DNA of 63,853 nucleotides, the filler included, from Reclinomonas americana ATCC 50394 (lineage: Eukaryota), in the NCBI GenBank assembly GCA_048213135.1. It is 20 parts of 20 records of this genome, joined end to end, with 100 filler letters (N's around TTAATTAATTAA, not from the genome) between each part and the next. Parts side by side here need not be neighbours in the genome. Positions count along the whole stretch, not along the records: positions 41,551 to 43,238 come from AFZH01024280.1; 19 more parts are not named here. The stretch is one strand, 5' to 3'. This document shows, piece by piece, positions 25,420-63,038 of the stretch. The number at the start of each line of letters is the position of its first letter. Positions within the stretch are counted from its first letter, which is position 1. The notes beneath the pieces were generated by a model. The model saw nothing but the letters and a program-made list of their open reading frames with translations. It had not been told where the DNA came from and did no database searches. The position numbers were made by a program, and so were the translations under genes.

Positions 25420-26049
25420 CATGTTGTGAGTGGGAGCTTTGACAGCACAGTGCGTGTGTGGTCACTGGCGAGTGGAAAGGAAGTGCGACGGTTTCTGAGT
25501 CACCCGTGGGTAATCATTGCAGTCGCGTTCACTCCCGATGGACAGCACTTGGTAGGTGGGAGCACTGACCCGACTGCGCGAGTGTGGTCGCTGTCGAGCG
25601 GCGAGGAGTTGCGACGATTTATGGGGCACGCTCGCGCAGTGTTTACAGTCATCGTCACTCCCGATGGTCAGTATGTGGTCAGTGGCGGTAATGACAACGT
25701 TGTGCGAGTGTGGTCACTGGCGACTGGCGAGGAAGTGCGACGATTGGAAGGGCACACCGATCGTGTCTCTTCGGTTACGCTCACTCCCGACGGCGAGCAC
25801 ATTGTGAGCGGCAGTTACGACAAGACTATCCGCGTGTGGTCAACACCGCGTGGTCTTGCACGGCAGGAACTTCAGTGTGCACGACTGGCCATGCAGGCTG
25901 TGCGGGAAATGCAGCGAGAGATTGACGACGAGAAGGAGGAGGAGGATCCACGCTGCTTGGTGGAGATTGTGCTGCGGTGTTTCTTGGTGGAAGATGCACG
26001 AGTCATTCTTTATCGATGCTGTGCCGGCGACAATCCCCTGCTGTGGTAA
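25420..26049 (+). CDS. WD40-repeat protein C-terminus (HET-E/NWD-like repeats), 5'-partial, intronless here
   Basis: About 3.5 repeats of 42 aa, e.g. EEVRRLEGHTDRVSSVTLTPDGEHIVSGSYDKTIRVW. Confidence 0.9.
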   Translation, partial: HVVSGSFDSTVRVWSLASGKEVRRFLSHPWVIIAVAFTPDGQHLVGGSTDPTARVWSLSSGEELRRFMGHARAVFTVIVTPDGQYVVSGGNDNVVRVWSLATGEEVRRLEGHTDRVSSVTLTPDGEHIVSGSYDKTIRVWSTPRGLARQELQCARLAMQAVREMQREIDDEKEEEDPRCLVEIVLRCFLVEDARVILYRCCAGDNPLLW

Positions 26050-26214: not shown

Positions 26215-29200
26215 TCACCGCGATGAGCTGCTACCACCCCCGCCCAGAGCAGACGAATCCGACAGCGAGTTCAGCTGATCCATGACATCGCGCAGAATGC
26301 GCACTCGGTTGGCCGCCTCCTCTCGTTGCGCCAGTACCGCCGGATCCTCGGCCAGCAGCGAATCGTACAACGACTCCTGCACCCCACCCCCACTTGAGAA
26401 CAGACACCCGGGCATTCGTTCACGCAGAATAGCGCACTTGCCTTGTGTAGCGTGGCGATAATGTGCGCGCTCAGCTGCTCACGCAGCGGGCGGACGATAA
26501 AGTGGAAAATGGCCTTGGGTACGGAATCCTGCAGGCATAAGTGTGAGAGAGAGGTGGCTCTTTTCAACATGCCTCCACACCCCACGCAACTTGCATGGCG
26601 GCGCGCACAAGCAAGAAATACGACTGGAGCAGCTCGCCTGTGCACATAACAGAATATGTACGTAAGTAGAATGGTTGTGTCGTGATCGCACGCGCGACAA
26701 CGCAACGAGTAATCATCAACTCGGCGGCCTCGTCTTCACGCAGCTCGTCGACCTTGTGCTCGCCTCCCGACCCAGATGCGGAGGAGTTTGGCGGTGAGCG
26801 CGAGCCAGCGCGCTGTGCCCCACCAAAGAAATTGTCGAGGAGGCCCTGCGGGGGTGATATTCGATAAGATGATGATAGACAGCAATAGCAGCAAGAAAAA
26901 AGTAAAGATAGAAGGCGAGGACAGAACGCGAGACAGGGGGGGGCGGGGGAGACGGAGTGGGGGGGAGACGGAGTGGGGGGGAGACGGCAGTGGGGAGACG
27001 CAGTGGGGAGACGCAGTGGGGGNNNNNNNNNNNNNNNNNNNNNNNNNNNNNNNNNNNNNNNNNNNNTTAATTAATTAANNNNNNNNNNNNNNNNNNNNNN
27101 NNNNNNNNNNNNNNNNNNNNNNGCAGTGGGGGGAGACGCAGTGGGGGGAAACGCAGTGGGGGGAGACGCAGTGGGGGGAGACGCAGTGGGGGGAGACGCA
27201 GTGGGGGGAGACACAAGTGGGAGATGAAGTGAGGAAAGACGGAGTGGGGGGAGACGGAGTGGGAGGAGATGTAGTGGCGAGAGACTCTCCTTGCCCAAGT
27301 CAACATGCTTCCGCTTCTTTCATCCTCTGCCATCCACCAACCCTCTCGCCCCACGCAACATCATCGCTCTTCGCTCCACGCTTCCCACCACCTCTGTCAG
27401 TCTGCACGCGAATCCGTTAACAACCGCAAGAACAATCACACTCATGGGAATACGAACCGAGGAGTCGACCATCACGAAATCGCTGGAGGCAGCGGAAGTC
27501 CCCACACTGCGCCCTGCACCCGCGGCATCTCCCCCCGCTCCCGCCGCCGCCGCCGCTGCTGCCGTCGCCGCCGTTGGGACGCGGCGCACCTGGCTGGTGG
27601 ACGCCGAGTTGCAGAGGTCGCGGTAAAAGTCGTGGAACGTCTGCCCGCGGTCGGCGTACACAAAATCAAAGTTGATAAAGTCGGACTGAATGGCCAGCGT
27701 CTGCTGAATGTACTCGCGACACGCCGGTGCCTTCTCGTCCACAATCTCGCGCACGCACTTTAGCACGTGCTCACGCAGCAGCGGGTAGCGATTGAGCGGT
27801 GGGCGCTGTGCGATGTGCGTTGAGAAAAAGGCGAGGCGGAGCCGCACACACACAAAATCTCCTCCCCCACACACGCACCTCTGCACACCGCGACGCGATG
27901 CGCAACAGCGCCTCCACCACTCGTTCCAAACAGCGCATCGCCGGCGGTTCCAGTCGACGCAACTCGGTGCGAATGAGACGCACAAACACGCGGGTGTTCG
28001 GCAGCGCCTCGGACGCCAGACCCGGTGCGTGCGTGTTGCGAATGACGGCCACGATCTCGGCCTCGGAGGGTGACTGGTCGCAGTTCATGCGCCGGTACTG
28101 CGACACCAACTCGCTCTGGAAGATTTCGTGGACGAGAGCGGCGCCGCACCTGGACAGTAAGGGGAAGGGTGAGATAGAAGGGAAAGGCGGACGAGGGGGA
28201 AGGAGGAGGGGAGGAGGAGGAGGAGGAGGAGGAGGAGGAGGAGGAGGAGGAGGAGGAGGAGGAGGAGGAGGAGGAGGAGGAGAGGTGGTGGTGGAAGAGG
28301 AGGAGGAGGAGGAGGTGGTGGAAGAGAAGGAGGAGAAGGAGAAGGAGAACAGAGAGAAGAAACATATAAATAGAGAGAAGAGAAACAGGAAGGAGATGAG
28401 ACGGAAGAGGGGAACGTGAAATAGGGAAGGAGGAGAAGTGGAGAAAGAAACGGAGGAGGAAAATAAGAAGACGAAAGTAGAGGTGTATAGAGAGGAACAA
28501 CTGGCGGAGAAGGTGGGAAGAAAACGCGGACGAGGCATGACGAGAACATGATGAGAGCCGAGAAACAGACAGAGGAAATCGGGCACGAGTAGAGAGCGGA
28601 TGCGACGGCGAAGCGTCACACACAGGAGGAGAGAGAAAGGATCACGAAGGATTAGGAACACGGGATGAGGGCAACGATGCACTCCTCGTGCAGGAGACAG
28701 AGAGAAACACTGAGAATTGCAAGGGGAAAAAAGACATTGCAGCGTGCTAACGAAGGCATGCAGTGTGCCTGAAAGCCAGAGGACAAAGACGATGACACGA
28801 AAAGGAGGGATGCATAAAACACAACTTTTCCGTCAGCACGTCTTGACCTGTGCCCTCGTAGACGCTCTTGAATGAGTCCGAGAACGACTGCAGCCGGTAC
28901 AACAGCAGGGCGCTCTGCAATCAAAATAGTCGTCAGTTGTCGCTTGCAATTGCCCCCTTCTTCTCGTCGCTTGCGTGTCTGTCTGCGTGTCTATCTGTCA
29001 ACGTTTGTCTGTCTGTCTGTCTGTCTATCCGTACATCTCTATTTATTTCTCTCTCTCTCGCCACTCTCCCGTCGCACATACGAAGCGACACGCTTCTGAT
29101 ACACGTTATCCTACTCTCACTCCTTCCTCTCTTGCGAGAGAGATTGGTAAGTTGGTCGAGCGAGGCAGGCTCATGGAGATCAGGCGTTCATCCTGCATCC

Positions 29201-31120
29201 AGTTTTTCTCTCTCTATCTCTCTTCCTTCCATGTCCTCCCTTATCTCTTTTACCTCTCCTTCTTCATGCCCTTCGCCGTCTCCTTCCATTCTTAGTCCTC
29301 CCATACCCTTGCTCCTCCTTTCCTGTCATCCTCTCTTCCCCTTCATGTCCTTCCCTGTCTCCTTCCACTCTCGCTCCTCCCATACCTTGCTCCTCCTTTT
29401 CCTCTCATCCTCTCTTCCCCATGTCCTCCTCACTACCCATCCTTCCTTCTACCATACCTTTTTTCGCACCCCCTTCCCCTTTACCCTCCCTTTTCCCTCT
29501 CTATCCCCTCCCCCTTTCCCTCATCACCTTCTCCCTCGGCACATACACATCCACCTCCTCGGCGACCGCGCGCAACGCCTCCTGTGCCGACAACAACATG
29601 AAATGCGCCGTCTGCCGCACCTCCGGCAACTCCTCGCAGATGCGCTTGAAGAGATGCTCGCTCAGCTTGCGCGCCAAGTACGGCACGCCCATCTGGTCGG
29701 CCATAGGGGCGTACTTTTCGTGGCGTCGAAAGTAATCGCGCTCCGCCGCCAGCGCCTCCGCAATGCTCGTGCCACGCTGAATATCCAACTGCGACCGATT
29801 GATGACGCCCACGTAGCCGTGTCGCAGCGGCACCACCTCACCGCGCAGCATACGCAGCGCGTCGACTCCACGATCCATCAGATCCAGCTTCGTAATCACG
29901 CCAATGGTGCGCTCGCCCTCCGGATCGAATTTTTTCGACACGGCCAGCGCGTCGGCCGTGGCCAAATCGGCATTGCCGGGACACACCGCCAGAATGAGGT
30001 TGTTTTTGCGACGCACATAGTCCTTCACAATCTCGTAGATCTGCCGGTCAATGTCCTCCGGCTGCCCGGTGGTCGCCACGCGCGTGAGACCCGGCAAGTC
30101 GACCAGTGTCAGTGGGATGACTCTGTGGCGCGCGCGCGGTCAACAAAGGAGAATAGAGAGAGGGGAATGGGATGTAAGGGTACCTGGAGGAGTAAATCGT
30201 CAGTCGAATGGGCTCTCCAGAGACCACTTGCCGCGTGGCAGTCAGGTGGCGTTCGGTCTCGGCCTGGATCTCATCGCGAACGCGCGAAAAATCCGTGAAT
30301 CGCCGACTCGGATCGTGCTCAAACATCGCCCAGTCGTCCTCTAGGAAGGCAGTGAGAGTGAGTGAGAGAGGGACAGAGTGAGGGAGAGAGACAGAAGAGC
30401 ACTCACCGCCCTCGCGACATCGCAGCAGCTGCAGAACCAACGGTCGTCGCGTGACAATCTCAGTGCCTTTGCATGAGAGAGAGAGAGAGAGAGAGATGCA
30501 CAAGGTTAGCGATCGCTCTCTCACTCACAGAGAGACACAGAGAGAAGGAGTAAGCGATCTCTATGACACAAAGACAGATCTCGAGGGAGAAGGAGTATAA
30601 GCGACCTATTCTCTCACACTCACAGAGAGACAGAGGGCGAAGGAGGAAGCGATCACACACAGCGATCTCTCTCTCTCTCTCTCTCTCACTCACAGAGAGA
30701 CAGAGGGAGAAGGTATAAGCGAATTCACTGACACAAAGAGACCGATCTCGAGGGAGGAGAAAGCGATCGCTCACAGTTCTCGCTCACTCTCTCACTAACA
30801 GGGAGACAGAGGGAGAAGGAGCAAGCGAACACAACAGCGATCTCACTAACACAGAGACACAGAGGGAGCGGGAGCAAGCGATCACTCACAGCGATCTCTC
30901 TCTCTATGTCGCTCTCTCTCCTCTCACTCTCACACTTTGACTGACCTCGCGGGAGAAAGTCGCGCCCAACAATCGCCTCCAACACTGAGCTCTTGCCTGA
31001 GGTCTGCGAGCCCACGACAACGATTCCCGGCAATCGCACTTGCTCCTCGAAGCTGTGGCCCATGCCCAGTGTCTCCAACAGAGATTGCACATTGTTGACA
31101 ACGGGAAGAAGCGCGTCCAT
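26215..31120 (-). CDS. Dynamin-related GTPase (Drp1/Vps1-like), multi-exon, spans spacer 27023-27122
   Basis: [58 protein letters not shown]; middle domain [21 protein letters not shown]...LLAEDP. Confidence 0.93.
26935..27270. repeat. G-rich ~15-16 bp intronic minisatellite (ggggggagacgcagt) flanking a gap
   Basis: Unit repeated on both sides of spacer 27023-27122. Confidence 0.85.
30500..30910. repeat. Degenerate ~50-60 bp tandem repeat in dynamin intron 1
   Basis: Recurring agcgatctct..cactcacagagagacagagggagaaggag. Confidence 0.7.
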
Positions 31121-31289
31121 TGTGTGTGAGAGATAGAGGGAGAGAGGGAGACAGCGAGGAAGTAAGAGAGAGAGCTCTGACAGGACTTGTCGGGTTTCAT
31201 TTCGCGTGGTTTCTCTTTGTTTCTGCCTTTGTTGTTGTTCTCAGCTAGGCGAGTGGTGTGAATGTGAGTGGAGTGAGTGAGGAAGGTGA

Positions 31290-40548: not shown

Positions 40549-41970
40549 ACGAGAACTATGTCGACTGTCAGTCAACGGCATTCCGACAAATATGGAAAGC
40601 AGAAATGGCGGGAAAACCAGTCAGCAACGGTCGTCAAACAAAGCAAAACATGAACAAGGCACCAGAGAACAACAAAGGAGAGAGAAGAGAGAGAGAGTTG
40701 CTCTGCCCGTTCCCAAGCTCACCTTTCACCTGCAGGCATACAGTGCGTCGAACAAGAATTCGAAACAACACGATTGAGAACATGCGTGAGTATTGGTCAA
40801 ACTCGGAGACGGAGATCGTGGCCGCGCAACTTTTTTCCTATGAAAGAGAAACAGAGAGCACGTGAGTCACATGATGTATCAAAACGTCAAACCCCACGAA
40901 GACGTACATAAGTCTGGAGACACTTCGTGGTAAAAACCCTGCACGAGAAATTTCAGTGCAGGGCGGTCAACGCTCGCACGCGACCTTGACTTTTCGCCGC
41001 CAGTGTGTGACAGTCGGAACAAAACCCGCAGGCGAGGACTCGTGCTCGGCACTTGCTGCATGCAAGAGGATCGAGTGGGAGGGAAAAACAAAGGACAACA
41101 CAGATCATCAATTTTAGCATTGACAACGTACAGCGAAACACGCACAACCACTCACCAATGTGCCGGCCGGCCACTGCCGCTGCGTCACAAAAATAAAACA
41201 CACCGGCGTCGACGATTACTACCCCGAAAAGGCCGCCCTGCTCAAGGGAGCAGAGAGACGTCCGGAACAGCAGTGTCATAAAACCCAAACCCATAACAAG
41301 CGAAAGAAGAACACCGAGCACCACTCAAAAAGCAAACATAAAAGCTGGTGGTGCCACGGGGAGACTCACGTCGCACTTGCCACAGAAAACAATCAGGAGG
41401 TCAAGAGCATGTGCGGAAAGAGTCCAAGGCAATCAAACACACGCAAACACNNNNNNNNNNNNNNNNNNNNNNNNNNNNNNNNNNNNNNNNNNNNTTAATT
41501 AATTAANNNNNNNNNNNNNNNNNNNNNNNNNNNNNNNNNNNNNNNNNNNNTCTCTCTCTCTCACGCACCTCAGCACACAGTCGTAGCGCGCCGCCATGGT
41601 GATGGTGCTCGAGCAAGTCGCGCGCGCGGGACGGACTGCATTCGAGCGTGTCGTTGATGTGTCCAACGACGATTGACGCGAGTGGCCGCGGGCCGCGCGA
41701 ACACAGCTGGTGACCTACTACACCACATTCGCAGCGAGAGAGCCACGCGCACAGGGCACAATACATGAACCTGTGGAAAACACGCAACAAAAGGGACTTG
41801 GTACAAATGACAGGGTGCCACCACACGGTCAACACGAGTCGTACCTGCAGCACACCAAGCGGCGGCGGCGGCGGCGGCGACGCTCGCGCGTTGCGGCACG
41901 ACATTGGCAAAGCAGCAGGCCTGCATCACGTCGCCATCCATCACACCCGCAACAACATCTACCTCGTGTG

Positions 41971-43120
41971 TCACTTGTTCTTCCGCGGCCGCTTTTGCGG
42001 CGGTGCTCCTTCGACCGGAGCAGATCGGGGGTGCTTTCCACCCTGTCGGGGCGGAGTGCTAGCACGTGCCGATGCTGCAGCGCAACTTCCACCCTGCAGC
42101 TGGCGACGATTTCGGGGCGGAGCACGTTCCGATGCTGCAGCTGGTGCTGCCGGTGGCGGTGGAGGGGGAGGACTCATGGAGCCGTCCAGCATCTGATTCG
42201 CTGCTGCATCATCCCGCCGACTGCGCACACGAAGAGTGAGACGCAACGAATTATTCAGCATCGCAAGATCGCTCGACAGATAATTACAATATATAACTCA
42301 CCCAGGTGACAGTTGTCGATCGGCGTCGCCCATGGCCAGCAGAGACAGCTCCAGATCCATGGCCAGAGGCGAGAAGAAATCGAAGTCGGGGAAGGGTCGA
42401 TCGGCGTCGCTCGGCAGAGGCAAGGAGACGGGGAGTGGACGACGAGCTCGAGGGAGCGAGGAATCAATCTCCATGGCGGCGCTCCCAGCTGCTGCGGGCG
42501 CCGGCGGTGATGATTCCGATGTACGCTCAATGGCGACACAAGCGATGTTCTTCGTGGAGGAATCATCGCGCGCCACTTCGACATCGAAGAGCGGGCAGGC
42601 CGTGTTCAAGCACTTCATCTTCTTGGCACCGCCAGGGGCCGGGAAAAATGGTTCGCCACAGCTGCACAGGCGAGTTGTGTGCGCCTCAGAGCACTCCACA
42701 ATGACGATGGGGGCGATGCCCAACAGGGCGCGCTTCGCGTTGATCTTGTCAATCTGTGGAGAGTGTGGAGAGAAACACAACAACGGAGGGTTACTGACAT
42801 AGGGTAGAATTTCATACTACCTCGCAGTAACCCCACACAAACACAAACAAGTTCTCTCTCTCCCCTCTCTCTCTTCTCTCTAGATCTCTGTCTCTCTCTC
42901 TCTCATACACGCACGCACAAAACGTACCGCTTGTCGCAGACGATCAGCAAATCTGCCAAACGCGCCAAGAAGCAGAGACTTGGTCGTACCAGAGGTGAGA
43001 ACGCGAGTCCTCTCCTCGCAGGAGCCATCGTCGAACACTCGCAATGTGTGACGAGCCGCCATCGACTGTGTCGAGTCCGAGAAAGGCGGCAAGATGATGC
43101 ATGTGAAATGGGTCACCAGG
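41971..43120 (-). CDS. Fanzor2/TnpB-like RNA-guided nuclease homolog, last three exons (43120-42928, 42753-42302, 42220-41971), 5'-partial
   Basis: LVTHFTCIILPPF...VLTSGTTKSLLLGAFGRFADRL/...VECSEAHTTRLCSCG...CLNTAC...ARDDSSTKNI; canonical phase-compatible GT-AG introns. Confidence 0.75.
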
Positions 43121-43157
43121 CTGCAGCGTGCAAATAGTCAGCGCACACAACGAGAGG

Positions 43158-43202
<45 letters not shown>

Positions 43203-43338
43203 ACAATTGGATGAGCGAGGCATGATAGCTGTCTCTAANNNNNNNNNNNNNNNNNNNNNNNNNNNNNNNNNNNNNNNNNNNNTTAATTAATTAANNNNNN
43301 NNNNNNNNNNNNNNNNNNNNNNNNNNNNNNNNNNNNNN

Positions 43339-44800
43339 GCGCGCCGACCGGGGCCGGCCGGCCGGGAGCCTTGGTTGGTCGTGCCTTGCTCTTGGTAGGC
43401 GCAGGAGCGGGGGTCGTCTCGTTCTTCTCCTTCGGGAACATGGCACCGGAGAGAGTGCGATCCTCATTCTCTGCACGCAGCGAGCGGCAAAATGAGCCAT
43501 GACATTCCCGCAGCGGGCCCCGGGTGGTTGTCGTGGATCGATCACGCAACTTACGCTGTCGAGGGCGCGAAAAAGGCGGTCAGTGATGGCCACCAACGCA
43601 GTCTGCATGCGTTTGGCCTCTGTTGCGAAATCGGCGGCGGGGAGCCGTTGAATACGCGGTCGCCCAAACTCTGTGCGCGGAGTGTGAGATCAGAGTGTGA
43701 GCAGAAAATCAAAATGCAAGGCACAACGCACCAGTCTGAACCAACAATGCATCGCCTATCACGTCCAAGAGAAGACGAAACGAGTTGTGAGCGCGTGTGA
43801 AAGCCGCCACTGCTTTGCGTACTCTAGCATGCTCCGCGATGCCGGGGATTGCACGCAAGAATTGTCCAATCGCGGCCTCGTGATCGAGCTCGTCGTCGCC
43901 GTCGTCGACGCCACCATCTACGTAGCAGACAGCGAAAGCGAGGAAGAGAGCATTTCGCTGTGCGTTTCGCAGTAGTGCATCTAAAGAGTTCATGCATGAA
44001 TTCAAGATCTTAGAACGCGCACCGATCAGGAGGGGGGGGGAAAAAACAACACACCTCGCTCTGCTTGGTCGCCCGCTGAGAATGATCGCGAAGCAGCCGC
44101 AGTACGGTTGCCACTGAGGACGCTGAACACTCCGCATCGCCCAGAACCTGCAGGCGTGTGGAGAGCGAGAGTAAGAATCAGAGATTGAGACTGCCACGTC
44201 GACTACACTCTCCCCTCCTCATGCATGAGCTCACCGAGTCCGACCAACGTCGTGCGAAACTGAGCCAACGCATCGTCGATGTTGTCTGGTGTGCATTGTG
44301 GCTCTAGATCTCGCGCAGCAGCAGCGGCCCCAGCCTGCGGCGGCGCACCGCTGTCCGTACCGTTGATATGCTTGCGTAGGGACACAACAAGCTGGTCGGT
44401 GGCATCCGTGGCAGCACTCCAGATCGCTGGTGAAAGCACAAAAGTCGACGGTGGAGTGAGAGTGAGAACAAACGAGGCAAATAAATAAAAAAACACCGTG
44501 CTATGCGACATACGCTTCTCCTCGCTCTTCAATTGCGAGAACACAGCCTTGGCTGCGAGCAACTTGGTCACCTTGTGCACTGCCTTTGCACAATAGTTGG
44601 TGCAAGTAAAGCACCGCTCCAAGACCTGCGACGATCGCGGGGTGAAGTTCGTAAGTCATTTAATTTGTCCCTCACTTGTCACAAACAAGGCAAACAAATC
44701 CAGACTTCAGCCGCCAAGCACAAGGCCTTACGAGGCTGCAGCAGCTGGCCATGGCGTGCTCTGACTTCTCCTGCTGCATGTCTCCCAGTGCATGTGCGCG
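43339..44800 (-). CDS. Fragments of a multi-exon hypothetical eukaryotic gene
   Basis: Several - strand exons with GT-AG boundaries; no recognisable domain. Confidence 0.3.
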
Positions 44801-45116
44801 TATCTTTTCACCCATTTCTTTGTGCGCATGCGCGCTTGCGTTCTCTGTTGTGTGTGCATGTGTGTGCCCCTCTTGATTCAAACAGTTCATCACTCCTGAC
44901 AGGTTGTGTGGGAGTGTGTGCGTGAGACAGAGAGAGAGAGAGAGAGCAACGACAAAGAACGAGAAAGTTTGAAGACATTTCGAGCGTGCCATGTCCCAAC
45001 CCCCCTCTGATGTCTCNNNNNNNNNNNNNNNNNNNNNNNNNNNNNNNNNNNNNNNNNNNNTTAATTAATTAANNNNNNNNNNNNNNNNNNNNNNNNNNNN
45101 NNNNNNNNNNNNNNNN

Positions 45117-45470
45117 GCCACGCTCCCGTAGCCGCTCGGCGACGATGTCGTCGCGGGTCGGGACGCTGTCGAAGACTTTCGACCCCATAGAGGTGCGGAT
45201 GCCCGCCGTGGCGGTCAGGTCCTTCAGCGTATAGGGCACGCCATGCAAGGGGCGGAGATCGTCGCCGCGCGCCACCGCCTCGTCCGCGGCCTTGGCCTGT
45301 TTGCGCGCCAGCTCGGCCGTCACGGTCACGACTGCATTGATGCCGGGATTCAGCTGCTCGATCCGGGCCAGCGCCGCTTCGGTCGCCTCGCGGGAGCTGA
45401 TCAGCTTGCTGCGGATGCCCGCCGCCAACTCCCGGGCGCTCCACGAGCACAGATCGTTCCGATCGGTCAT
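45117..45470 (-). CDS. Amidase signature family protein, 3'-partial (bacterial)
   Basis: SARELAAGIRSKLISSREAT...INAVV...PLHGVPYTLKDL..TAGIRTSMGS; GGAG Shine-Dalgarno. Confidence 0.9.
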
Positions 45471-45538
45471 CCGAATAGTCTCCACTGCTCTACCCATTCC
45501 GAGCCGCCGGCATCTGAGATCCAGGCACCGGCGCTTCG

Positions 45539-45552
45539 CACAATCGATTGCA
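45539..45552. promoter_or_regulatory. LacI-family operator (CACAATCGATTGCA)
   Basis: Palindrome with central CG upstream of the amidase; matches sites at 47129, 47237, 48781. Confidence 0.7.
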
Positions 45553-45575
45553 GAAATAAACTCAAATCAGGCAAT

Positions 45576-46652
45576 TCATGCGGCGACGCGCACATCCTCC
45601 TCAGCCCCCCGGCGCTGGGGCTCGATGCCGAGCGTCCCGACGACGAGGATCATGATCATCAGCGCGCTCGCCATCAGCGCCAGCACGCCGCCGACCCCGT
45701 ATTGGCTGAACAACGGGCCGATGAAGAGCGGTACCACGATGCTGGCGCTGCGCCCCGCGGCATTGCACAGGCCGACCCCGCGCAGGCGGAAGGCGGTCGG
45801 GAACAGCTCCGGCACATAGATCGCGAACAGCGCGGCAACCAGCACATAGATCGGAATCGTGAGCAGGAAGCCGATGACAGCGGCCATTGTGGAGCTGGCC
45901 GACAGCCCGAACAGGACGCTGAGCACGATGGCGATGGCCGATGCGCCGATGATGGTGGGTTTGCGCCCGAAAGCATCCGCCGAGACTGCTCCGAGCGACG
46001 CCCCGATCGGGCCGCCAAGGGCCATCACCAGCGCAAAGCCGGTGCTGCGCGCGATGCTCTCGCCCTGCCCGACGAAGAAGGTCGGCAGCCAGGTGATGAA
46101 GCCGTAGATCAGCGTGTTCACCACCATCAGCGCGATGCAGCCGACGATGAGGCGCGTCAGATAGGGCCGGCGGAAGAGCTGGCCGGCACCGAGCGGGACC
46201 TCGTCCGTGGTTGATGCCTGCACCGGCGGCAGCGGTCCCATGGCGCTGGCGGACTGCTCGAGCTTCGCGACCAGCGCCTCGGCCTCCGCCTCGCGGCCGG
46301 CGGCGGCGAGCCNNNNNNNNNNNNNNNNNNNNNNNNNNNNNNNNNNNNNNNNNNNNTTAATTAATTAANNNNNNNNNNNNNNNNNNNNNNNNNNNNNNNN
46401 NNNNNNNNNNNNGCCCCAGAAACCGGTGAGGAGCGCGCCGAGCGTCATGCCGACGAAGGTCGCCGAAATGAACAGCCCGTTCTGCGCCAGTGTCGAGAAA
46501 CCCGATTTGTAGGCGGCGCCGAGCACGCTGGCCGCGATATAGATGTCGAAGCCTTCGAAGAACATGCCGACCGCGACGAGCCCGAAGATCTTGCGATGCA
46601 ACGGCGTGATCGGCAGCCGATCGAGCCTCGCCCCGATGGTGTTGACCGACAT
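45576..46652 (-). CDS. MFS transporter (sugar-porter/AAHS-like), spans spacer 46313-46412
   Basis: MSVNTIGARLDRLP, FFEGFD, DAFGRKP, YVPELFPTAFRLRGVG. Confidence 0.9.
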
Positions 46653-46714
46653 TGGCCTCCCTCCCTGTTATCTGGTGACGGGCGCCGGCCCGATGCTGGG
46701 GCCGGTCACGCGCG

Positions 46715-47101
46715 TCAGTCGACGACGGCGACGCCCTGGATTTCGATGAGCATGGTCGGGTCAGCGAAGCCGGTGACCGTGATCGCGGCGCTGGCCGGGA
46801 AGTCGGAGCCGAAGATCTCGGCGCGGATCTCGGTCATCCGCGTGGTGTGGCGCGGATCGGTCAGGAAGACCGTGACGGTGACGATGTCCTTCAGCGTGGC
46901 GCCGGCTTCCTTCAGCGTCGCCTCGATATTGCGGAAGGTCTGATAGGTCTGGGCCTCGAAATCGCCGGCGAGCGACTTGCCCTCGCTGTCCTTCTGGCCG
47001 GTATGGCCGGCGAACCAGACGGTGCGGCCGCCCTGCGTGATCACCGCCGGCGAGAAGGCGCGCGACTGCTGCCAGGTGCCGCGAACATAGGTCTTGGTCA
47101 T
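46715..47101 (-). CDS. RidA/YjgF/YER057c/UK114 family protein
   Basis: FSPAV, AGHTG, QTFRNIEATLKEAGATLKDIV, FPASA, IEIQGVAV; GAGG Shine-Dalgarno. Confidence 0.9.
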   Translation of the reverse strand: MTKTYVRGTWQQSRAFSPAVITQGGRTVWFAGHTGQKDSEGKSLAGDFEAQTYQTFRNIEATLKEAGATLKDIVTVTVFLTDPRHTTRMTEIRAEIFGSDFPASAAITVTGFADPTMLIEIQGVAVVD

Positions 47102-47128
47102 GATGTCCTCACTGTGGCTTTCGCTTCT

Positions 47129-47250
47129 TACAAACGATTGCAGAAGCATTTCTCATCGTCAAGCCCCTCTGCCGCTCCACAGCATGCACCTGCCTCAGGC
47201 CAGGCATGGACAGCACACAATCGGTGATGGCATAGTCGCAACCGATTGTA
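47129..47250. promoter_or_regulatory. Two LacI-family operators in the divergent ridA-lacI intergenic region
   Basis: TACAAACGATTGCA 47129-47142 and CGCAACCGATTGTA 47237-47250. Confidence 0.65.
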
Positions 47251-47317
47251 GAAAAATTGCAATCGCAGGCAGCTTCGGCTGCGCTGGTCTGCAACGCGAA
47301 TTCGGGCCGGTTCATCG

Positions 47318-48391
47318 GTGAAAGCGAAATTGTCCCAGCAGAGCCGCGGCGGCGGCCGGCGCCCGGTCACCATGAAGCAGGTGGCGGAGCTCGCAGGCGT
47401 CCACGTCTCCACCGTATCGCGCGCGCTCAATCCGGCAACGCGGCCGATGGTTGTGGCGGAGGCGGTCGCGCGCGTGATGAAGGCGGCCAACACCTTGGGT
47501 TATCGTCTCGACCCGGTCGCGGCCTCCTTGCGTACCGGGCGCTCGCGGCTCGTCGGTGTGCTGGTGCCGGATATCGCGACAAGCGTCTTCACGCCGATCC
47601 TCACCGGCGCGACGGCCCGGCTCTCGACTCATGGCTATTCGGCGATGGTGGCCTATGTCGGTGCCGATGCGAGACAGCAGCTCGATCTCGCTGGCGACCT
47701 GATCGCCCGCCGCGTCGACGGCCTGATCCTGGCCACGGTCAGCCTCGACGACCCGCTGGTCGGCTTCTGCCTCGCCGAAAAACTGCCGGCCGTGCTGGTC
47801 AACCGCGCCGAGAAGGAGGCCCGGGTGCCGGCCGTGGTCTCCGACGAGATGCGCGGCATGCAGCTCGCCATCGACCACCTCGTGGCGCTCGGGCACAGCC
47901 GGATCGGACATCTCGCCGGCCCGCAGCAGCATTCGACCGGCCTGCTGCGGCGGCAGGGCTTCCTGCAGGCGCTGGCCGCACACGGCCTTAAAGCGCATGG
48001 CCTGATCGAAGCCGGCACCTATACCCGCGAGGAAGGCGCACAGGCGGCGCAGCAGCTGATCGGCGGCCATCCCGAGATCACCGCCATCGTCGCCGCGAAC
48101 GACCTGCTCGCGCTCGGCGCCTACGATACGGTGCGCGAGCATGGGCTGACCTGCCCCGACGACATCGCCATCATCGGCCACAACGACATGCCCCTTGTCG
48201 ACCTCGTCCAGCCGCCGCTGACCACGATCCGCATCAGCCATGAGGAAATGGGCCGCCAGGCCGCCGATCTCCTGCAGCAGACCATCGAGTCCGCCGACAG
48301 CCCGGTCCGCAATGTCGTGCTGCCGCCGCGGCTGATCGTGCGGGGCTCGACCGCCGCACCGCGCAAGGGGCGCATCAAGAGCAAAGCCTGA
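47318..48391 (+). CDS. LacI-family transcriptional regulator
   Basis: VTMKQVAELAGVHVSTVSRALN HTH; ANDLLALG; PPLTTIR; LIVRGST. Confidence 0.95.
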   Translation: MKAKLSQQSRGGGRRPVTMKQVAELAGVHVSTVSRALNPATRPMVVAEAVARVMKAANTLGYRLDPVAASLRTGRSRLVGVLVPDIATSVFTPILTGATARLSTHGYSAMVAYVGADARQQLDLAGDLIARRVDGLILATVSLDDPLVGFCLAEKLPAVLVNRAEKEARVPAVVSDEMRGMQLAIDHLVALGHSRIGHLAGPQQHSTGLLRRQGFLQALAAHGLKAHGLIEAGTYTREEGAQAAQQLIGGHPEITAIVAANDLLALGAYDTVREHGLTCPDDIAIIGHNDMPLVDLVQPPLTTIRISHEEMGRQAADLLQQTIESADSPVRNVVLPPRLIVRGSTAAPRKGRIKSKA

Positions 48392-48492
48392 TNNNNNNNN
48401 NNNNNNNNNNNNNNNNNNNNNNNNNNNNNNNNNNNNTTAATTAATTAANNNNNNNNNNNNNNNNNNNNNNNNNNNNNNNNNNNNNNNNNNNN

Positions 48493-48720
48493 GCCGAGAG
48501 GCTCCTCGCCCTGCCCGCTGGCATAGGCGATCACATTGTCGATCGAGGAAAGCGCGATCGCAGCCGTTCCGGAATGCAGCGCGCGCGCCATGTGCCGCGA
48601 GTTCGGCGTCAAGGTCAGCGTCAGCTCCAGGCCCTGCTCCGCGAAGAAGCCGCGTGCCTGCCCCGCCCAGACCGGCCAGTTGGAAGCGCCGGCGAAGGCG
48701 ATGATGTCGAGCTTGGTCAT
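48493..48720 (-). CDS. ABC transporter substrate-binding protein (NMT1/TauA-like), 3'-partial
   Basis: NWPVWAGQARGFFAEQGLEL. Confidence 0.75.
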
Positions 48721-48780
48721 GATCTCCCGCCTTGGGCCACCAGTGGCCATGCGCTCGACGGCCGAGCACAAGACTCTTTC

Positions 48781-48794
48781 TGCAATCGATTGTA
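48781..48794. promoter_or_regulatory. LacI-family operator (TGCAATCGATTGTA)
   Basis: Near-perfect palindrome ~60 bp upstream of the SBP start codon. Confidence 0.7.
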
Positions 48795-48895
48795 AGAAAA
48801 ATCAAGCGAAGGGCCGCCGCCCATGCCCGGCAGGTCAAGGAGGAGCGCCCTCGCCTGGCCCGGCGCAGAAGGCGCAGCCTCGCCAGGCCATCGTT

Positions 48896-49450
48896 TCAGG
48901 CGCCGAGGATCGTCAGAATGATGCGTACCGGCTGGTCGCCGATATTTCTGAACCAGTGCTCGGTATCGACCAGCACCGTCGCGGTGTCACCGGCGCCCAG
49001 TGTGATCGTCTCCTGCCCGGCGTGGATCTCGAGACGGCCGGTGAGAACGTGGAAAATCTCGCGCGTTCCCGGCTTATGCGGTGCGAAGCGGTTCGATGTC
49101 GCTCCCGGCGGGACGCTGTAGGACAGGAGCTCCAGATCCGGCGTCGGGCGCGCCAGTGTCAGCCGCTCGATTCCCGTCACATCGTCGAAGAAGCGCAGAT
49201 TCTCGCCGTCGCGGGTGATCTTGGCATTGTCGCGCTCCACCAGCTCGGAGAGCTCGAGGCCGAGGCCGCGCGCAATGGCGATCGCGTTGCGCAATGTCGG
49301 GCTGAGCAGCCCGCGCTCGACCCGGGACAGCGCGGCCGCCGAAACGCCGCTCGTCCCGGCGAGCTGATCGAGCGTCACGCCGAGCTGCGTGCGACGCGTG
49401 CGCACTGCGTTCCCGAACCGGACATCCTGATCCTGCGACTCTAACTCCAC
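48896..49450 (-). CDS. XRE-family HTH + cupin transcriptional regulator
   Basis: TLDQLAGTSGVSAAALSRVERGLLSPT; cupin EIFHVLTGRL...LGAGD...HWFRN. Confidence 0.9.
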   Translation of the reverse strand: MELESQDQDVRFGNAVRTRRTQLGVTLDQLAGTSGVSAAALSRVERGLLSPTLRNAIAIARGLGLELSELVERDNAKITRDGENLRFFDDVTGIERLTLARPTPDLELLSYSVPPGATSNRFAPHKPGTREIFHVLTGRLEIHAGQETITLGAGDTATVLVDTEHWFRNIGDQPVRIILTILGA

Positions 49451-49465
49451 GTGAAACCCCTGAGC

Positions 49466-49494
49466 TTGACAAATTGCATATTAGCAAAAATAAT
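49466..49494 (+). promoter_or_regulatory. Sigma70-like promoter overlapped by an inverted repeat (probable XRE operator)
   Basis: TTGACA 49466-49471, 17-bp spacer, AATAAT 49489-49494; TTGC-N6-GCAA at 49474-49487. Confidence 0.55.
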
Positions 49495-49521
49495 TTCTGA
49501 TCTGCAAATCGAAGGCATCCG

Positions 49522-49816
49522 ATGTCCACCCTCCTCAGCGCATTGCCGGCGCTGTCCACCATCCTCGCCCTCGCGGTCGGGGCGCGCTCGCTGCACGCCG
49601 CCCTTCTGGGCGTGGGAACGGCAGCGCTCGCCATCCTGCTGGCCTTTCCGCTTCCTCCGGACAGCATACTGCCCCACCACCTTGCGCTGGACCCCCATCC
49701 TGATGGAAGTCCTGCTGATCGTCGCAGGCGGGCTGCTGCTGTCGGAGGTGCTGCGGCAGGCCGGCGGGCAGGCTGCGCTGGCGAGCTGGATCAGCGGACG
49801 CGCCGGCCAGGGCGTC
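49522..49816 (+). CDS. L-lactate permease-like membrane protein, 3'-partial, apparent frameshift near 49672
   Basis: Hydrophobic N-terminus continues in another frame as PTTLRWTPILMEVLLIVAGGLLLSEVL; the shift falls in a C run. Confidence 0.55.
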
Positions 49817-58394: not shown

Positions 58395-58644
58395 NNNNNN
58401 NNNNNNNNNNNNNNNNNNNNNNNNNNNNNNNNNNNNNNTTAATTAATTAANNNNNNNNNNNNNNNNNNNNNNNNNNNNNNNNNNNNNNNNNNNNGAGGAT
58501 TGCTATCGCGACCTGCGTCCTCGCTCCGGGTGACGTGAGAATGGGGCGCGCTTGGCAACCAGTAATTGAATCTTGCGCTGGAAGCGCTTGACGCTGCAGT
58601 GACTTGAGAAGAGTCTAGCAACCGAATCCAGACAACGGCAAAGC

Positions 58645-60553
58645 ATGACGGTGCATACCCAGGTTCCAGTTGTCGCGATTGAGGATGAGAAAGCGGCCGA
58701 GTTCGCCGATATCCTGCGCGAGCAGGTTCGCGAAAGGGCCGAAAGCGAACCGGGCGAGGGGATAGTTCTCGATGCGCACTTGCTCGCCGTGTCGATGGAT
58801 TATCTCGAAGACCAGGGCGGCGTTGCGACCGACGTCGGCGAAGGAGCGGTCGGCGCCGACGATTTCGTCCGAATGCCTTTCAAGGCCAAGATCAAGAACA
58901 CGAATGTCCTGATCCTCGGCTATCTACCAATCGGCTCGGACGGCCAGCTTACGCTGTTCACCGCCCGCTACGGCGACGATCCGGCCGACCGCACCCTGAG
59001 CGTCGGCGAGTTCCGGAGCAGGATCGAACAGGCGCGCAGGTTCTTCATCCTGGCCTACAACGAGCCCGACCTGTTCGCCGACCATGCGCAGGTTCGTCCG
59101 CTCGTCGACCACATCACCGATCAGGGCGACCGGATTTCCGAACTCCGCATCGTCTTCGTGACCAACCTGAAGCTGGGCACCAGCAAGTACGACCGCGAAG
59201 TCAGCCTCGGCGACATCGACGTCGTCTATGACGTCTACGACGTCGAGCGCCTGCACAAGCTGTCGGACGAAACGTTCAGCGCCTCCGACATCGTCGTCGA
59301 CTTCAACGAGGTCCTGAAGAGGCCCGTGCCGTGCCTGGAAGCGACGGGCCGGGACGAGCCCTATAAGAGCTACCTGCTCATCCTGGACGGGACGACTATC
59401 CACTGGCTGTTCAAGAGGTATGGGCCCAGGCTCTACGACACGAACCTCCGTTCCTATCTCGACAACAAGACGAAGGTGAACAAGGACATCATCAAGACGG
59501 CGAGGGAGCAGCCCGACCGCTTCCTCGCCTACAACAACGGGCTGACGGCGACCGCGCAGGAGATCGAGGTCTCGACCTACCACGGCCAGCCCAGCATCTC
59601 GCGCATCGTCGGCCTACAGATCGTCAACGGGGCCCAGACGACCGGTTCGATATTCAAGGCCATCGAGGGGCTGCCGAAGAGCAAGCGCGGCGAGGTGGAC
59701 CTGTCCCAGCTCTCTGTCTCGGTGAAACTGACCAAGGTCACCGGCGACGACCTGAAGGAGTTCGTCCCGCGCATCACGCGCTATGCCAACACCCAGAACC
59801 CGATCCAGGCCGCCGACCTCGAAGCGAACGAGGAGCTCCACCGGCGCCTGGAGCAGCTCGCCAACGAGTCCTGGACGCCGGGAACGTCGACGCGCTGGTT
59901 CTACGAGCGGACCCGCGGATCGTATCAGGCCGCCATGAACCGCGAGGGAACGACACCCAAGCGAAAGGCCGACTTCAAGGCTCAGATCCCCAAGGAGCAG
60001 CGCCTCGGGAAGACGGACCTCGCGAGGTTCTGGATGTCGTGGAACCGCCATCCGCACCTGGTCAGCAAGGGTGCCCAGAAGAACTTCGACGCCTTCAAGA
60101 AGATGGTGTCTGATCCGTCCGGCGGCATCCCGATGGAGAAGGTCGACGAAAAGTTCTTCCGGGACGTCGTGTCGATGGCGATCCTTTTCCGCGCCGCCAG
60201 CGCCGCGGTGACGTCGGCGGGGATCGGCGGCGGCATCGGCTCGATGGTGAAGGCCTACGTCACGTCCTACCTCGCCTACCGCCTCGGCGAACGTATCAAC
60301 CTGGATATGGTCTGGCAGAACCAGGACGTCTCCGACGCCATGAAGGCGCTTCTCGACAAGTGGACGCCGCTCGTCCTGGAGCGGATGAAGCTGAATGCCG
60401 GCGACCACACGACCGAGTGGTTCAAGAAGGAGAACTGCTGGCTCGACGTTCAGGGGCTCGAAGCCGCACTACCGACCCCGCTTCCGCCGGAATGCGGCGT
60501 CCCGGAGGCACCCAAGACGTCGCCCGCGGCAGCCACCGAGCCCAAAGCAGCGG
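58645..60553 (+). CDS. AIPR (abortive infection phage resistance) family protein, long form, 3'-partial
   Basis: NLRSYL, FLAYNNGLTATA, LQIVNGAQTT, YANTQN, WFYERTRGSY, PHLVSKGAQKNF. Confidence 0.92.
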
Positions 60554-60653
60554 NNNNNNNNNNNNNNNNNNNNNNNNNNNNNNNNNNNNNNNNNNNNTTA
60601 ATTAATTAANNNNNNNNNNNNNNNNNNNNNNNNNNNNNNNNNNNNNNNNNNNN

Positions 60654-61172: not shown

Positions 61173-61187
61173 TGTCGTTCCCGGAAA

Positions 61188-63030: not shown

Positions 63031-63038
63031 GGAATGGT

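What the first reader, a model, noticed from the sequence alone, without database searches (positions are those of the whole stretch)
41971..43120. Spliced eukaryotic Fanzor2/TnpB-like gene with intact RuvC-II/III and zinc-finger motifs
Seen: joining exons 43120-42928 and 42753-42302 through a canonical phase-0 intron gives LVTHFTCIILPPF...TKSLLLGAFGRFADRLRQA/IDK...VIVECSEAHTTRLCSCG...KCLNTAC...ARDDSSTKNI. Known: Fanzor2 and related TnpBs have an ILLPxF segment where the usual RuvC-II Glu is lost, a relocated Glu in ExxTSxxCxxCG, a second Cys pair, and RuvC-III RDxNAAxNI. Here the Glu (42685-87) and Asp (42565-67) are retained. Inference: a nuclear, intron-containing RNA-guided nuclease homologue in a protist, invisible as a single ORF. 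RuvC-I lies beyond the contig edge, so activity cannot be judged.
Basis: partly seen in the sequence, partly recalled or inferred. Interest (0 to 1): 0.82.

Follow-up and report, generated by a model that had tools for sequence, protein, structure and literature searches.

The report
Partial intron-split Fanzor2-like nuclease gene
A short contig from an unidentified eukaryote carries the rear part of a gene related to the Fanzor2/TnpB RNA-guided DNA cutters, interrupted by host-type introns; it is a real but incomplete and very divergent new member of an already known family.

Summary
On the minus strand of a 1,688-base contig (41551-43238), exon A (43120-42928), exon B (42753-42302) and exon C (42220-41971) are separated by GT..AG segments of 174 and 81 bases.

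Single-sequence searches found almost nothing. Pfam PF07282 scored only E 0.22, and phmmer against 1.84 billion proteins gave 0 hits.

Profiles built here from giant-virus Fanzor2-type genes recognise both conserved exons separately and in the right order. By hhalign, exon A gives P 1.5e-6 and exon B P 1.9e-5. They rank 1 and 2 of the 837 window ORFs scored (of 866); the best decoy is 3.8e-4. The computed spliced peptide gives one HMM domain at E 1.9e-6.

The same profile's best solved structure is mimivirus Fanzor2. Its catalytic E467 and D501 fall in the columns holding the window's Glu (42687-42685) and Asp (42567-42565). The old RuvC-II site reads IILPPF, the proline type seen in published Fanzor2 sequences.

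RuvC-I lies beyond the contig edge, no RNA data were available, and the organism is unidentified.

Verdict: a new, divergent member of a known kind. Homology confidence is about 0.85; activity is unknown.

The parts
43121..43238 (-). 3' end of an upstream intron: (GT)n run, pyrimidine tract and CAG acceptor at 43123-43121. The contig ends at 43238 inside it.
   Evidence: Sequence and linker map. Profile homology begins only at the first residues after the acceptor, although the profile has about 35 more positions upstream.
42928..43120 (-). Exon A (64 full codons from 43119). It holds the former RuvC-II strand IILPPF (43098-43081), where the canonical Glu is replaced by Pro, and the helix ...TKSLLLGAFGRFADRLRQA.
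   Evidence: Translation. hhalign against 43 giant-virus Fanzor2-type sequences: P 1.5e-6, probability 90%, columns 41-88. Rank 1 of 837 window ORFs scored. HMM E 0.021 on its own.
42754..42927 (-). Intron 1, 174 bases: GTACGT donor, (GA)n-rich body, pyrimidine tract, CAG acceptor. It has two in-frame TAG codons.
   Evidence: It has no counterpart in any of the 43 family sequences and forms part of a 68-column insertion. pLDDT is below 50 for read-through residues 89-122. It has the same style as the introns of the dynamin gene in this window. No transcript evidence.
42302..42753 (-). Exon B. Relocated RuvC-II Glu at 42687-42685. Zinc-finger Cys codons at 42666-42664, 42660-42658, 42612-42610 and 42597-42595. 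RuvC-III Arg-Asp with Asp at 42567-42565. A low-complexity tail follows.
   Evidence: Translation. hhalign P 1.9e-5, probability 78%, columns 95-154. Rank 2 of 837. HMM E 0.002. E, T, four C, G, R and D are invariant across all 44 aligned sequences. They are in register with E467 and D501 of PDB 9b0l_P. Pfam PF07282 is only E 0.22.
42221..42301 (-). Intron 2, 81 bases: GTGAGT donor and CAG acceptor, phase 2.
   Evidence: Sequence; joining keeps the frame of ORF 41971-42297. No transcript evidence and no homology on either side.
41971..42220 (-). Exon C: a Pro/Ala-rich tail with internal 60-66-base repeats, ending KRPRKNK (41994-41974) and TGA (41973-41971).
   Evidence: No Pfam family. Reading KRPRK as a nuclear localisation signal is by eye and from general knowledge.

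Best explanation
This is the rear roughly 40% (RuvC-II region, zinc finger, RuvC-III, then a tail) of a Fanzor2-like gene. Fanzor2 is a eukaryotic relative of the TnpB RNA-guided DNA endonucleases, of the class in which the RuvC-II glutamate has moved to just before the zinc finger. The gene sits in host-like eukaryotic DNA and is split by at least three spliceosomal-type introns. The front part (WED, REC, RuvC-I) lies beyond an assembly break in a (GT)n run. SHOWN: collinear, statistically supported profile homology of two separate exons to Fanzor2-type proteins; retention of the Glu, the Asp and four zinc-binding Cys in register with the solved mimivirus Fanzor2; and GT..AG-bounded insertions exactly where homology is interrupted. 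INFERRED: if the missing front is intact, the protein would bind a guide RNA made from its own locus and cut matching DNA with a RuvC site built from RuvC-I Asp, this Glu and this Asp, after nuclear import through the basic C-terminal end. Whether it is still mobile, domesticated or decaying cannot be told from 1.7 kb.
For: (1) An HMM of 78 non-redundant giant-virus shifted-Glu TnpB/Fanzor2-type regions was run against 1,209 sequences (the window's six-frame ORFs plus the computed spliced peptide). The spliced peptide scored E 1.9e-6 as one domain over HMM positions 37-147, exon B ORF E 0.002, exon A ORF E 0.021, and the next hit E 3.3. (2) hhalign against alignment A2 (43 sequences): exon A P 1.5e-6 on columns 41-88 and exon B P 1.9e-5 on columns 95-154, so they are collinear. 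The null from 837 of 866 window ORFs puts the best decoy at 3.8e-4. (3) A2 is a genuine Fanzor2-type family: 43 of 43 members match PF07282, and its best solved structure is 9b0l_P, mimivirus 'TnpB-like protein L79' (Fanzor2), at E 5.6e-39, with E467 and D501 in the invariant columns (catalytic triad from passages of PMC11832414). (4) The joint alignment keeps E, T, C, C, G, C, C, R and D invariant in all 44 sequences including this one. (5) The motif type matches print. Fanzor2 'family5' entries read IILPVF / ILLPEF and VVCSEMYSSQTC. Family 5 is Fanzor2, and Glu is replaced by Pro or Gly (PMC10312701 passages). The Glu lies six residues before the zinc finger. (6) 62 of 87 viral ORFs carry the hydrophobic-P-x-F strand upstream. 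(7) ESM Atlas on exon B residues 1-80: first hits score 0.93, and 24 of 30 hits fall in the set of clusters that carry PF07282 (49% and 43% of members in the top two clusters). (8) Introns resemble those of the dynamin gene in the same window. Intron-bearing Fanzors with NLS are documented (PMC10530073 passages).
Against: Single-sequence and general-model searches are negative or weak. Pfam PF07282 scores 12.2 bits against a cut-off of 26.3, E 0.22. NCBIfam, PHROGs and PADLOC give nothing. phmmer against PDB finds no TnpB/Fanzor at E up to 10. phmmer against 1.84 billion representatives gives 0 hits at E up to 0.001. The word-indexed searches give none. A canonical TnpB HMM (20 Chloroflexota sequences) gives no hit in the window, and hhalign against canonical TnpB gives only P 0.0063, probability 5.9%. 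A search of 301 Chloroflexota genomes with exon B gave 32 genomes at E up to 0.1, about what chance predicts. ESM Atlas on exon A found nothing usable. The zinc finger has unusual spacing (CxC and CxxxxC instead of CxxC twice), and RuvC-III reads RDDSSTKNI instead of RDxNGARNI, so function may be impaired. The viral sequences used for the profiles were picked with a motif resembling exon B's. That motif does not touch exon A, whose score is therefore independent. There is no transcript support for any junction, and no second copy, element end or guide RNA was seen.
Confidence: 0.85

Rival explanations
1. It is a dead or decaying Fanzor2-derived relic. On this view the in-frame stops in 42927-42754 and the frame change at 42301 are decay or microsatellite insertions rather than introns, and no protein is made.
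For: An earlier case in this scan (e1-553185) was a decayed Fanzor1 copy first misread as intron-bearing. The zinc-finger spacing and RuvC-III motif are degenerate here. The 174-base segment is largely (GA)n-like. Long open frames are common in this window, with 119 ORFs of at least 170 aa, so open frames prove little. There is no RNA evidence.
Against: All 143 residues aligned to the profile are free of stops and frameshifts. The only stops lie in a segment with no counterpart in 43 relatives, bounded by GTACGT and pyrimidine-tract CAG exactly like this organism's dynamin introns. Homology also starts precisely at another CAG acceptor. The catalytic Glu and Asp and all four Cys are kept.
Confidence: 0.1
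2. The contig is not host nuclear DNA but comes from a giant virus or a recently integrated giant-virus fragment, since Fanzor2 is enriched in such viruses.
For: All profile relatives found here come from IMG/VR viral contigs, many of them giant-virus MAGs. Fanzor2 is enriched in viruses (PMC10530073 passages). The Bosea-like bacterial contigs in the window are recalled, not tested, as typical companions of amoeba cultures, where giant viruses also occur.
Against: The contig's GC (0.586) and its (GT)n/(GA)n runs match the other eukaryotic contigs (0.52-0.60). It has three host-style introns and a likely host-style neighbouring gene start downstream. Identity to the viral sequences is only 16-36%, and direct searches of viral contigs found no close relative.
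Confidence: 0.07
3. It is a chance resemblance: an unrelated Cys-rich eukaryotic gene that happens to carry TnpB-like motifs.
For: No homologue was found by any single-sequence search.
Against: Two separate exons each score far beyond 835 decoy ORFs, in the correct order and spacing on one strand. Exon A lies outside the motif used to collect the profile sequences. ESM features point independently to the same Pfam family.
Confidence: 0.03

Closest known systems
Acanthamoeba polyphaga mimivirus Fanzor2 (ApmFz2, 'TnpB-like protein L79', PDB 9B0L)
   Same: Shifted RuvC-II Glu directly before the zinc finger, a four-Cys zinc finger and a RuvC-III Arg-Asp. Its E467 and D501 fall in the same alignment columns as the window's Glu and Asp. 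It is Foldseek's first-ranked chain for the model.
   Different: ApmFz2 has Gly at the old RuvC-II site (ICIGKL's alignment), whereas this gene has Pro (IILPPF). ApmFz2 has no introns (PMC10530073 passages), an N-terminal NLS and an IS607 context. This gene has three introns, a C-terminal basic end, a tail of about 150 residues, and no visible element.
Fanzor2 'family5' entries Fanzor50_0619, _0616 and _3603 in Data S1 of Jiang et al. 2023 (PMC10530073)
   Same: By eye, from the supplement passages: HY-DT-IILPVF against HF-TC-IILPPF; RLLLGLKHFQFRKLLQA against SLLLGAFGRFADRLRQA; VVCSEMYSSQTC against VECSEAHTTRLC; GRDVNAAFNV against ARDDSSTKNI.
   Different: Those entries have regular CxxC pairs and end soon after RuvC-III. 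No alignment score could be computed, because these printed sequences could not be passed to the tools. Their species are not given in the file. _3603 is labelled 'unclassified'.
Giant-virus MAG TnpB/Fanzor2-type ORFs from IMG/VR (loci L075-L194)
   Same: Best profile relatives: 16-36% identity over the aligned region. 62 of 87 share the hydrophobic-P-x-F strand.
   Different: They are uninterrupted ORFs in AT-richer viral contigs. This gene carries 17- and 10-residue insertions, introns and the tail.
Canonical TnpB (ISDra2, PDB 8H1J/8BF8) and Cas12f
   Same: Same superfamily and zinc-finger/RuvC-III layout. hhalign places exon B in the right register.
   Different: The canonical Glu sits about 50 residues upstream of the zinc finger. 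A profile of 20 canonical TnpBs does not detect this gene.
Intron-containing Fanzor1c of Chlamydomonas reinhardtii (CrFNuc; PMC10530073)
   Same: It is a precedent for a Fanzor gene with host introns (passages).
   Different: It belongs to Fanzor1. The family 1-4 entries seen in Data S1 have Gly-type sites such as VAYGAGRW or VGFGDW, not the Pro type found here.

Membership tests
TnpB/Cas12 superfamily (Pfam PF07282, Cas12f1-like TNB domain) | Match to the Pfam model at or above its gathering score | tested here: inconclusive
   12.2 bits against a cut-off of 26.3, E 0.22, on exon B residues 16-70 and profile positions 17-60. This is the right place but sub-threshold. All 43 profile relatives pass.
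Fanzor2 / shifted-Glu TnpB class | Profile-level similarity of the RuvC-II to RuvC-III region | tested here: met
   HMM E 1.9e-6 for the spliced peptide. hhalign P 1.5e-6 and 1.9e-5 for the two exons. Ranks 1 and 2 of 837 ORFs scored.
Fanzor2 / shifted-Glu TnpB class | Catalytic Glu relocated to six residues before the first zinc-finger Cys | tested here: met
   E-A-H-T-T-R-L-C. The Glu at 42687-42685 is in the invariant column aligned with ApmFz2 E467. The rule comes from 10.1101/2023.08.09.552727.
Fanzor2 / shifted-Glu TnpB class | Canonical RuvC-II Glu replaced by Pro or Gly | tested here: met
   IILPPF aligns with the IilP-f strand of the family. The Pro/Gly statement comes from PMC10312701. 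The distance to the new Glu is 76 residues here against about 45-50 in print, because of insertions.
Fanzor2 / shifted-Glu TnpB class | Four-Cys zinc finger between RuvC-II and RuvC-III | tested here: met
   All four Cys are in invariant columns. The spacing is atypical, CxC and CxxxxC.
Fanzor2 / shifted-Glu TnpB class | RuvC-III Asp in the R-D...N-I motif | tested here: met
   R and D are invariant, and the Asp at 42567-42565 aligns with ApmFz2 D501. The middle of the motif is degenerate (DSSTK).
Fanzor (both classes) | RuvC-I Asp within a D-P-G motif | not testable with these tools
   It lies upstream of the contig edge at 43238. No genome is held and no runs were listed.
Fanzor (both classes) | N-terminal WED and REC domains | not testable with these tools
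   Same reason. The neighbouring contig in the file shows nothing TnpB-like by eye.
Fanzor (both classes) | Guide (omega/f) RNA encoded at the 3' end of the locus | tested here: inconclusive
   The downstream 393 nt fold no better than shuffles (z +0.77). No Rfam match reaches the gathering score. There are no paralogues to show conservation.
Fanzor (both classes) | Residence in a transposon (IS607 TnpA, terminal repeats, multiple copies) | tested here: inconclusive
   There is no second copy in the window and no terminal-repeat-like pair in the contig. 1.7 kb is too little to judge.
Fanzor (both classes) | Eukaryotic host: spliceosomal introns and NLS | tested here: inconclusive
   Intron signals and host-like intron style are present and the protein ends in KRPRKNK. 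No transcript evidence was available and no NLS predictor was run.
Fanzor2 fold (RuvC C-terminal half plus zinc finger) | Predicted structure superposes on solved Fanzor/Cas12 RuvC-zinc-finger modules | tested here: inconclusive
   The model built with the family alignment has pLDDT 72.8. Foldseek's top hit is 9b0l_P at E 0.15, with none at E up to 0.001. VIA-align gives Z 6.9 (Cas12p, rmsd 3.1 over 102 residues) and Z 4.9 (9b0l_P, 111 aligned). This is below the tool's caution line of Z 8, and the model leans on the family alignment.

The most novel reading that the evidence does not exclude
This may be a long-resident, possibly single-copy and host-domesticated Fanzor2 lineage in a poorly sampled eukaryote, whose dynamin is at most 56% identical to anything in 5.8 billion proteins. 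The lineage is so divergent that no protein in 1.84 billion representatives matches it. It has a remodelled zinc finger (CxC / CxxxxC), a C-terminal rather than N-terminal nuclear import signal and a long disordered tail, and it may still be catalytically competent. That would make it a distinct branch of eukaryotic RNA-guided nucleases, or an exapted derivative with a host function.
Probability: 0.2. Interest if true: 0.55.

Novelty: new member of a known kind. Interest (0 to 1): 0.35.

Why it matters
Fanzors are the eukaryotic RNA-guided nucleases and are of interest for genome editing and for the history of TnpB in eukaryotes. This locus adds a very divergent, intron-split Fanzor2-type gene that standard annotation would miss: Pfam is sub-threshold and no protein-level homologue was found. 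It shows that family-specific profiles applied to separate exons can recover such genes. It changes no concept, since intron capture, NLS acquisition and the shifted glutamate are all published. Only the rear part of the gene is available.

Tried and rejected
- **Whole genome:** none is held.
- **Sequencing runs:** none was listed and no RNA holder was listed, so the junctions could not be tested.
- **Paralogues in the window:** none by tblastn or blastn.
- **Family libraries:** NCBIfam, PHROGs and PADLOC gave no family for exon A, exon B or the read-through.
- **PDB by sequence:** phmmer with exon B found only an unrelated epimerase at E 1.
- **Word-indexed protein searches:** 35 and 1,348 candidates, none at E up to 1 or 10.
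- **phmmer against 1.84 billion representatives:** 0 hits with the intron read-through peptide.
- **Close relatives of exon B in contig collections:** none in viral, metagenome or genome contigs.
- **Chloroflexota genomes with exon B:** 32 of 301 at E up to 0.1, with a best E of 0.0018, as chance predicts.
- **Canonical TnpB HMM:** no hit.
- **ESM Atlas on exon A:** no usable hit.
- **AlphaFold without an alignment:** pLDDT 38, unusable.
- **Fold search on the alignment-based model:** Foldseek gave no match at E up to 0.001, and VIA-align stayed below Z 8.
- **Guide RNA:** the fold z-score was +0.77. Rfam gave nothing at gathering score; its three sub-threshold hits lie on low-complexity DNA.
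- **Repeats:** no element-end-like inverted repeat.
- **Other ORFs:** plus-strand ORFs, exon C and the downstream ORF have no Pfam family.
- **Neighbouring contig 43339-45016:** nothing TnpB-like by eye.
- **Organism identity:** the dynamin fragment gave hits of only 45-56% identity across animals, plants, fungi and kinetoplastids, so no assignment was made.
- **Open-frame length as evidence for coding:** rejected, because the window has 119 ORFs of at least 170 aa.
- **Scoring against the printed Fanzor sequences of Data S1:** left out, because those sequences could not be passed to the tools. That comparison is by eye only.
Full report
**Setting**

The window is not one molecule. It is 20 contigs of 1.0-8.0 kb joined by 100-base linkers of N around TTAATTAATTAA. 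The finding lies on a 1,688-base contig, 41551-43238, with GC 0.586. Most contigs look eukaryotic: GC 0.52-0.60, many (GT)n and (GA)n runs, and split genes. Three contigs (45117-49816, GC about 0.66) are bacterial. A LacI-type gene there is 99% identical to Bosea vestrisii. The three contigs at 58495-63853 (GC 0.61-0.64) also look bacterial but were not examined. No whole genome is held.

**The observation**

- After a pyrimidine tract and CAG (43123-43121), exon A runs 43120-42928. Its first full codon is at 43119. It encodes LVTHFTCIILPPF...TKSLLLGAFGRFADRLRQA and is followed by GTACGT.
- The next 174 bases (42927-42754) are (GA)n-rich, end in a pyrimidine tract plus CAG, and hold two in-frame TAG codons.
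- Exon B (42753-42302) encodes IDKINAKR...IVIVECSEAHTTRLCSCG...KCLNTAC...ARDDSSTKNIACVAI, followed by a low-complexity stretch.
- A second GTGAGT...CAG segment (42301-42221, 81 bases) joins in frame to exon C (42220-41971). Exon C is Pro/Ala-rich with internal repeats and ends ...PPQKRPRKNK-TGA.

**Is it TnpB/Fanzor? Negative or weak results first**

- Pfam gives PF07282 (Cas12f1-like TNB) only 12.2 bits, E 0.22, against a cut-off of 26.3, although in the right place.
- NCBIfam, PHROGs and PADLOC give nothing.
- phmmer against PDB sequences gives no relevant chain.
- The intron read-through peptide against 1.84 billion representative proteins gives 0 hits at E up to 0.001.
- Two word-indexed searches of 5.8 billion proteins give none.
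- No close relative appears in viral, metagenome or prokaryote contigs.
- Exon B against 301 Chloroflexota genomes gives 32 genomes at E up to 0.1, which is what chance predicts.
- An HMM of 20 canonical TnpB proteins taken from those genomes does not find the locus.
- hhalign against that alignment gives only P 0.0063, though in the correct register.
- ESM Atlas features of exon B point to PF07282-bearing clusters (score 0.93; 24 of 30 hits fall in that set; the family is on 49% and 43% of members in the top two). This is a lead only. Exon A gave nothing.

Passages of Jiang et al. 2023 and its preprint make three statements.
- All Fanzors, and the TnpBs that have lost the canonical glutamate, have it replaced by Pro or Gly.
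- They use another Glu about 45 residues downstream.
- Family 5 of the dataset is Fanzor2 (PMC10530073; PMC10312701).

Yoon et al. place that Glu six residues before the zinc finger (10.1101/2023.08.09.552727). Passages of the ApmFz2 structure paper give the triad as D324, E467 and D501 (PMC11832414).

I read part 1 of 139 of Data S1 of PMC10530073, plus passages found by word search. Cells longer than 400 characters are cut. Family5 entries there read ...HYDTIILPVFNS...RLLLGLKHFQFRKLLQAK...LVVCSEMYSSQTCGRC...AGRDVNAAFNV, and ...TILLPEF...EEYTSKTCGRCG...GRDVNGARNV. The family 1-4 entries I saw have Gly-type sites such as VAYGAGRW or VGFGDW. By eye the window's peptide follows the family5 pattern closely. 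This is a small sample, and no score could be computed on those printed sequences.

**A family-specific test**

I scanned IMG/VR viral contigs for a back-translated E-x-YTSKTC-xx-CG pattern.
- The scan returned 122 stretches, many from giant-virus MAGs.
- 87 ORFs of at least 150 aa hold the motif, and 62 of them have a hydrophobic-P-x-F strand upstream.

An HMM of 78 non-redundant regions was run against the window's 1,208 six-frame ORFs plus the computed spliced peptide.
- The spliced peptide scored E 1.9e-6 (24 bits) as one domain across the junction, HMM positions 37-147 of 151.
- Exon B's ORF scored E 0.002 (positions 91-147).
- Exon A's ORF scored E 0.021 (positions 36-85).
- The next hit was E 3.3.

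With the tool's hhalign against 43 of these sequences (A2):
- Exon A gives P 1.5e-6, probability 90%, columns 41-88.
- Exon B gives P 1.9e-5, probability 78%, columns 95-154.

As a null, I ran the same comparison on 837 of the 866 window ORFs of at least 40 aa; 29 were not reached. The two exon ORFs rank first and second, and the best decoy is 3.8e-4 over seven columns. Exon A lies outside the motif used to collect the viral sequences, so its score is independent of that choice.

**Anchoring to a solved Fanzor2**

All 43 A2 members match PF07282. The A2 profile's best PDB chain is 9b0l_P, mimivirus 'TnpB-like protein L79' (Fanzor2), at E 5.6e-39. In the printed alignment E467 and D501 occupy the invariant E and D columns.

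In the joint alignment of the window peptide with the 43 sequences, nine residues are invariant in all 44: E, T, C, C, G, C, C, R and D. The window's Glu (42687-42685) and Asp (42567-42565) are therefore the counterparts of the catalytic residues, and four zinc ligands are present.

There are also differences.
- The first knuckle is CxC and the second CxxxxC.
- The RuvC-III motif is RDDSSTKNI.
- There are insertions of 17 and 10 residues.

**Introns or decay?**

An earlier case in this scan was a decayed Fanzor1 copy misread as spliced (e1-553185), so I weighed that reading. Four points favour introns here.
- All 143 profile-aligned residues are free of stops.
- The only stops lie in a segment with no counterpart in any relative.
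- That segment is bounded by GTACGT and a pyrimidine-tract CAG.
- Homology also begins exactly at another CAG acceptor, although the profile has about 35 more positions upstream.

The dynamin-related gene in this window, mapped with four homologues, has introns of the same style: GTCAGT, GTGAGT and GTGCGT donors, CT-rich or microsatellite bodies, and AG acceptors. I therefore favour introns. No sequencing run could be listed, so there is no transcript proof.

**Fold**

Without an alignment the model is useless (pLDDT 38). With the family alignment it reaches pLDDT 72.8, and the intron-coded residues 89-122 stay below 50. Foldseek ranks 9b0l_P first but only at E 0.15, with no match at E up to 0.001. 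VIA-align gives Z 6.9 to Cas12p (rmsd 3.1 Å, 102 aligned) and Z 4.9 to 9b0l_P (111 aligned, 27% identity). This is consistent, but it is below the tool's caution line and it is not independent of the alignment.

**Context**

There is no second copy in the window and no terminal-repeat-like pair in the contig. The 393 nt downstream show no excess RNA structure (z +0.77), and no Rfam family reaches threshold. Other ORFs on either strand have no Pfam family. About 370 bases downstream of the stop, an ATG followed by a GTGCGT donor looks like the start of the next gene (by eye).

The organism is unknown. Its dynamin fragment is at most 56% identical to any listed hit in a 5.8-billion-protein collection.

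**Verdict**

This is a real, very divergent Fanzor2-like gene, seen only from the former RuvC-II strand to the stop codon. It is split by host-type introns and ends in a basic motif that may be a nuclear import signal.

If the missing front is intact, the most likely mechanism is the published one. A guide RNA from the locus would direct a RuvC site made of RuvC-I Asp, the relocated Glu and the RuvC-III Asp to cut matching DNA. This step is inferred, and the odd zinc finger and degenerate RuvC-III motif leave activity open.

Intron capture, NLS acquisition and the shifted glutamate are all in print for thousands of loci, so this is a new member of a known kind. No claim here rests on the unpublished genome G043 flagged.

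Noticed in passing
window 1-63853: The window is a chain of 20 separate contigs (1.0-8.0 kb) joined by 100-base linkers of N around TTAATTAATTAA. Neighbouring contigs need not be neighbours in the genome.
   Followed up: yes
window 45117-49816: Three contigs with GC about 0.66 carry bacterial-type genes. A LacI-family regulator (47360-48388, + strand) is 99% identical to Bosea vestrisii and 96% identical to a Bosea MAG. The assembly therefore includes an associated or contaminating alphaproteobacterium.
   Followed up: partly
window 58495-63853: Three more contigs with GC 0.61-0.64 hold long uninterrupted ORFs, for example 58603-60609 (668 aa) and 61188-62276. They look prokaryotic or phage-like. 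Not examined.
   Followed up: no
window 27671-31165 (- strand): A dynamin-related GTPase gene is split by introns of about 70 to 1,400 bases. Its best matches in a 5.8-billion-protein collection are only 45-56% identical and are spread over animals, plants, fungi and kinetoplastids. The eukaryote therefore seems poorly sampled.
   Followed up: partly
window 25420-26049 (+ strand): An open frame running in from the contig edge encodes WD40-like repeats (...VRVWSLASGKEVRRF... repeated). This was seen by eye in the ORF list only.
   Followed up: no
window 41551-41600 (- strand): An ATG GCG GCG... followed by a GTGCGT donor and a (GA)n run at the contig end looks like the first exon of the next gene, about 370 bases downstream of the Fanzor-like stop codon (by eye).
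   Followed up: no
window 41771-41848 (- strand): A GTACGA...pyrimidine-tract CACAG segment in the region after the stop codon looks like a further small intron, possibly in the 3' untranslated region. A 13-residue chance-level similarity to exon A (E 0.65) falls on its acceptor.
   Followed up: no
L075-L194 (IMG/VR viral contigs): Many giant-virus MAG contigs carry uninterrupted Fanzor2-type ORFs of 430-670 aa with the shifted glutamate. 62 of 87 have the Pro-type strand, and the rest show Gly-type strands such as IIGRL or YIGDM.
   Followed up: partly
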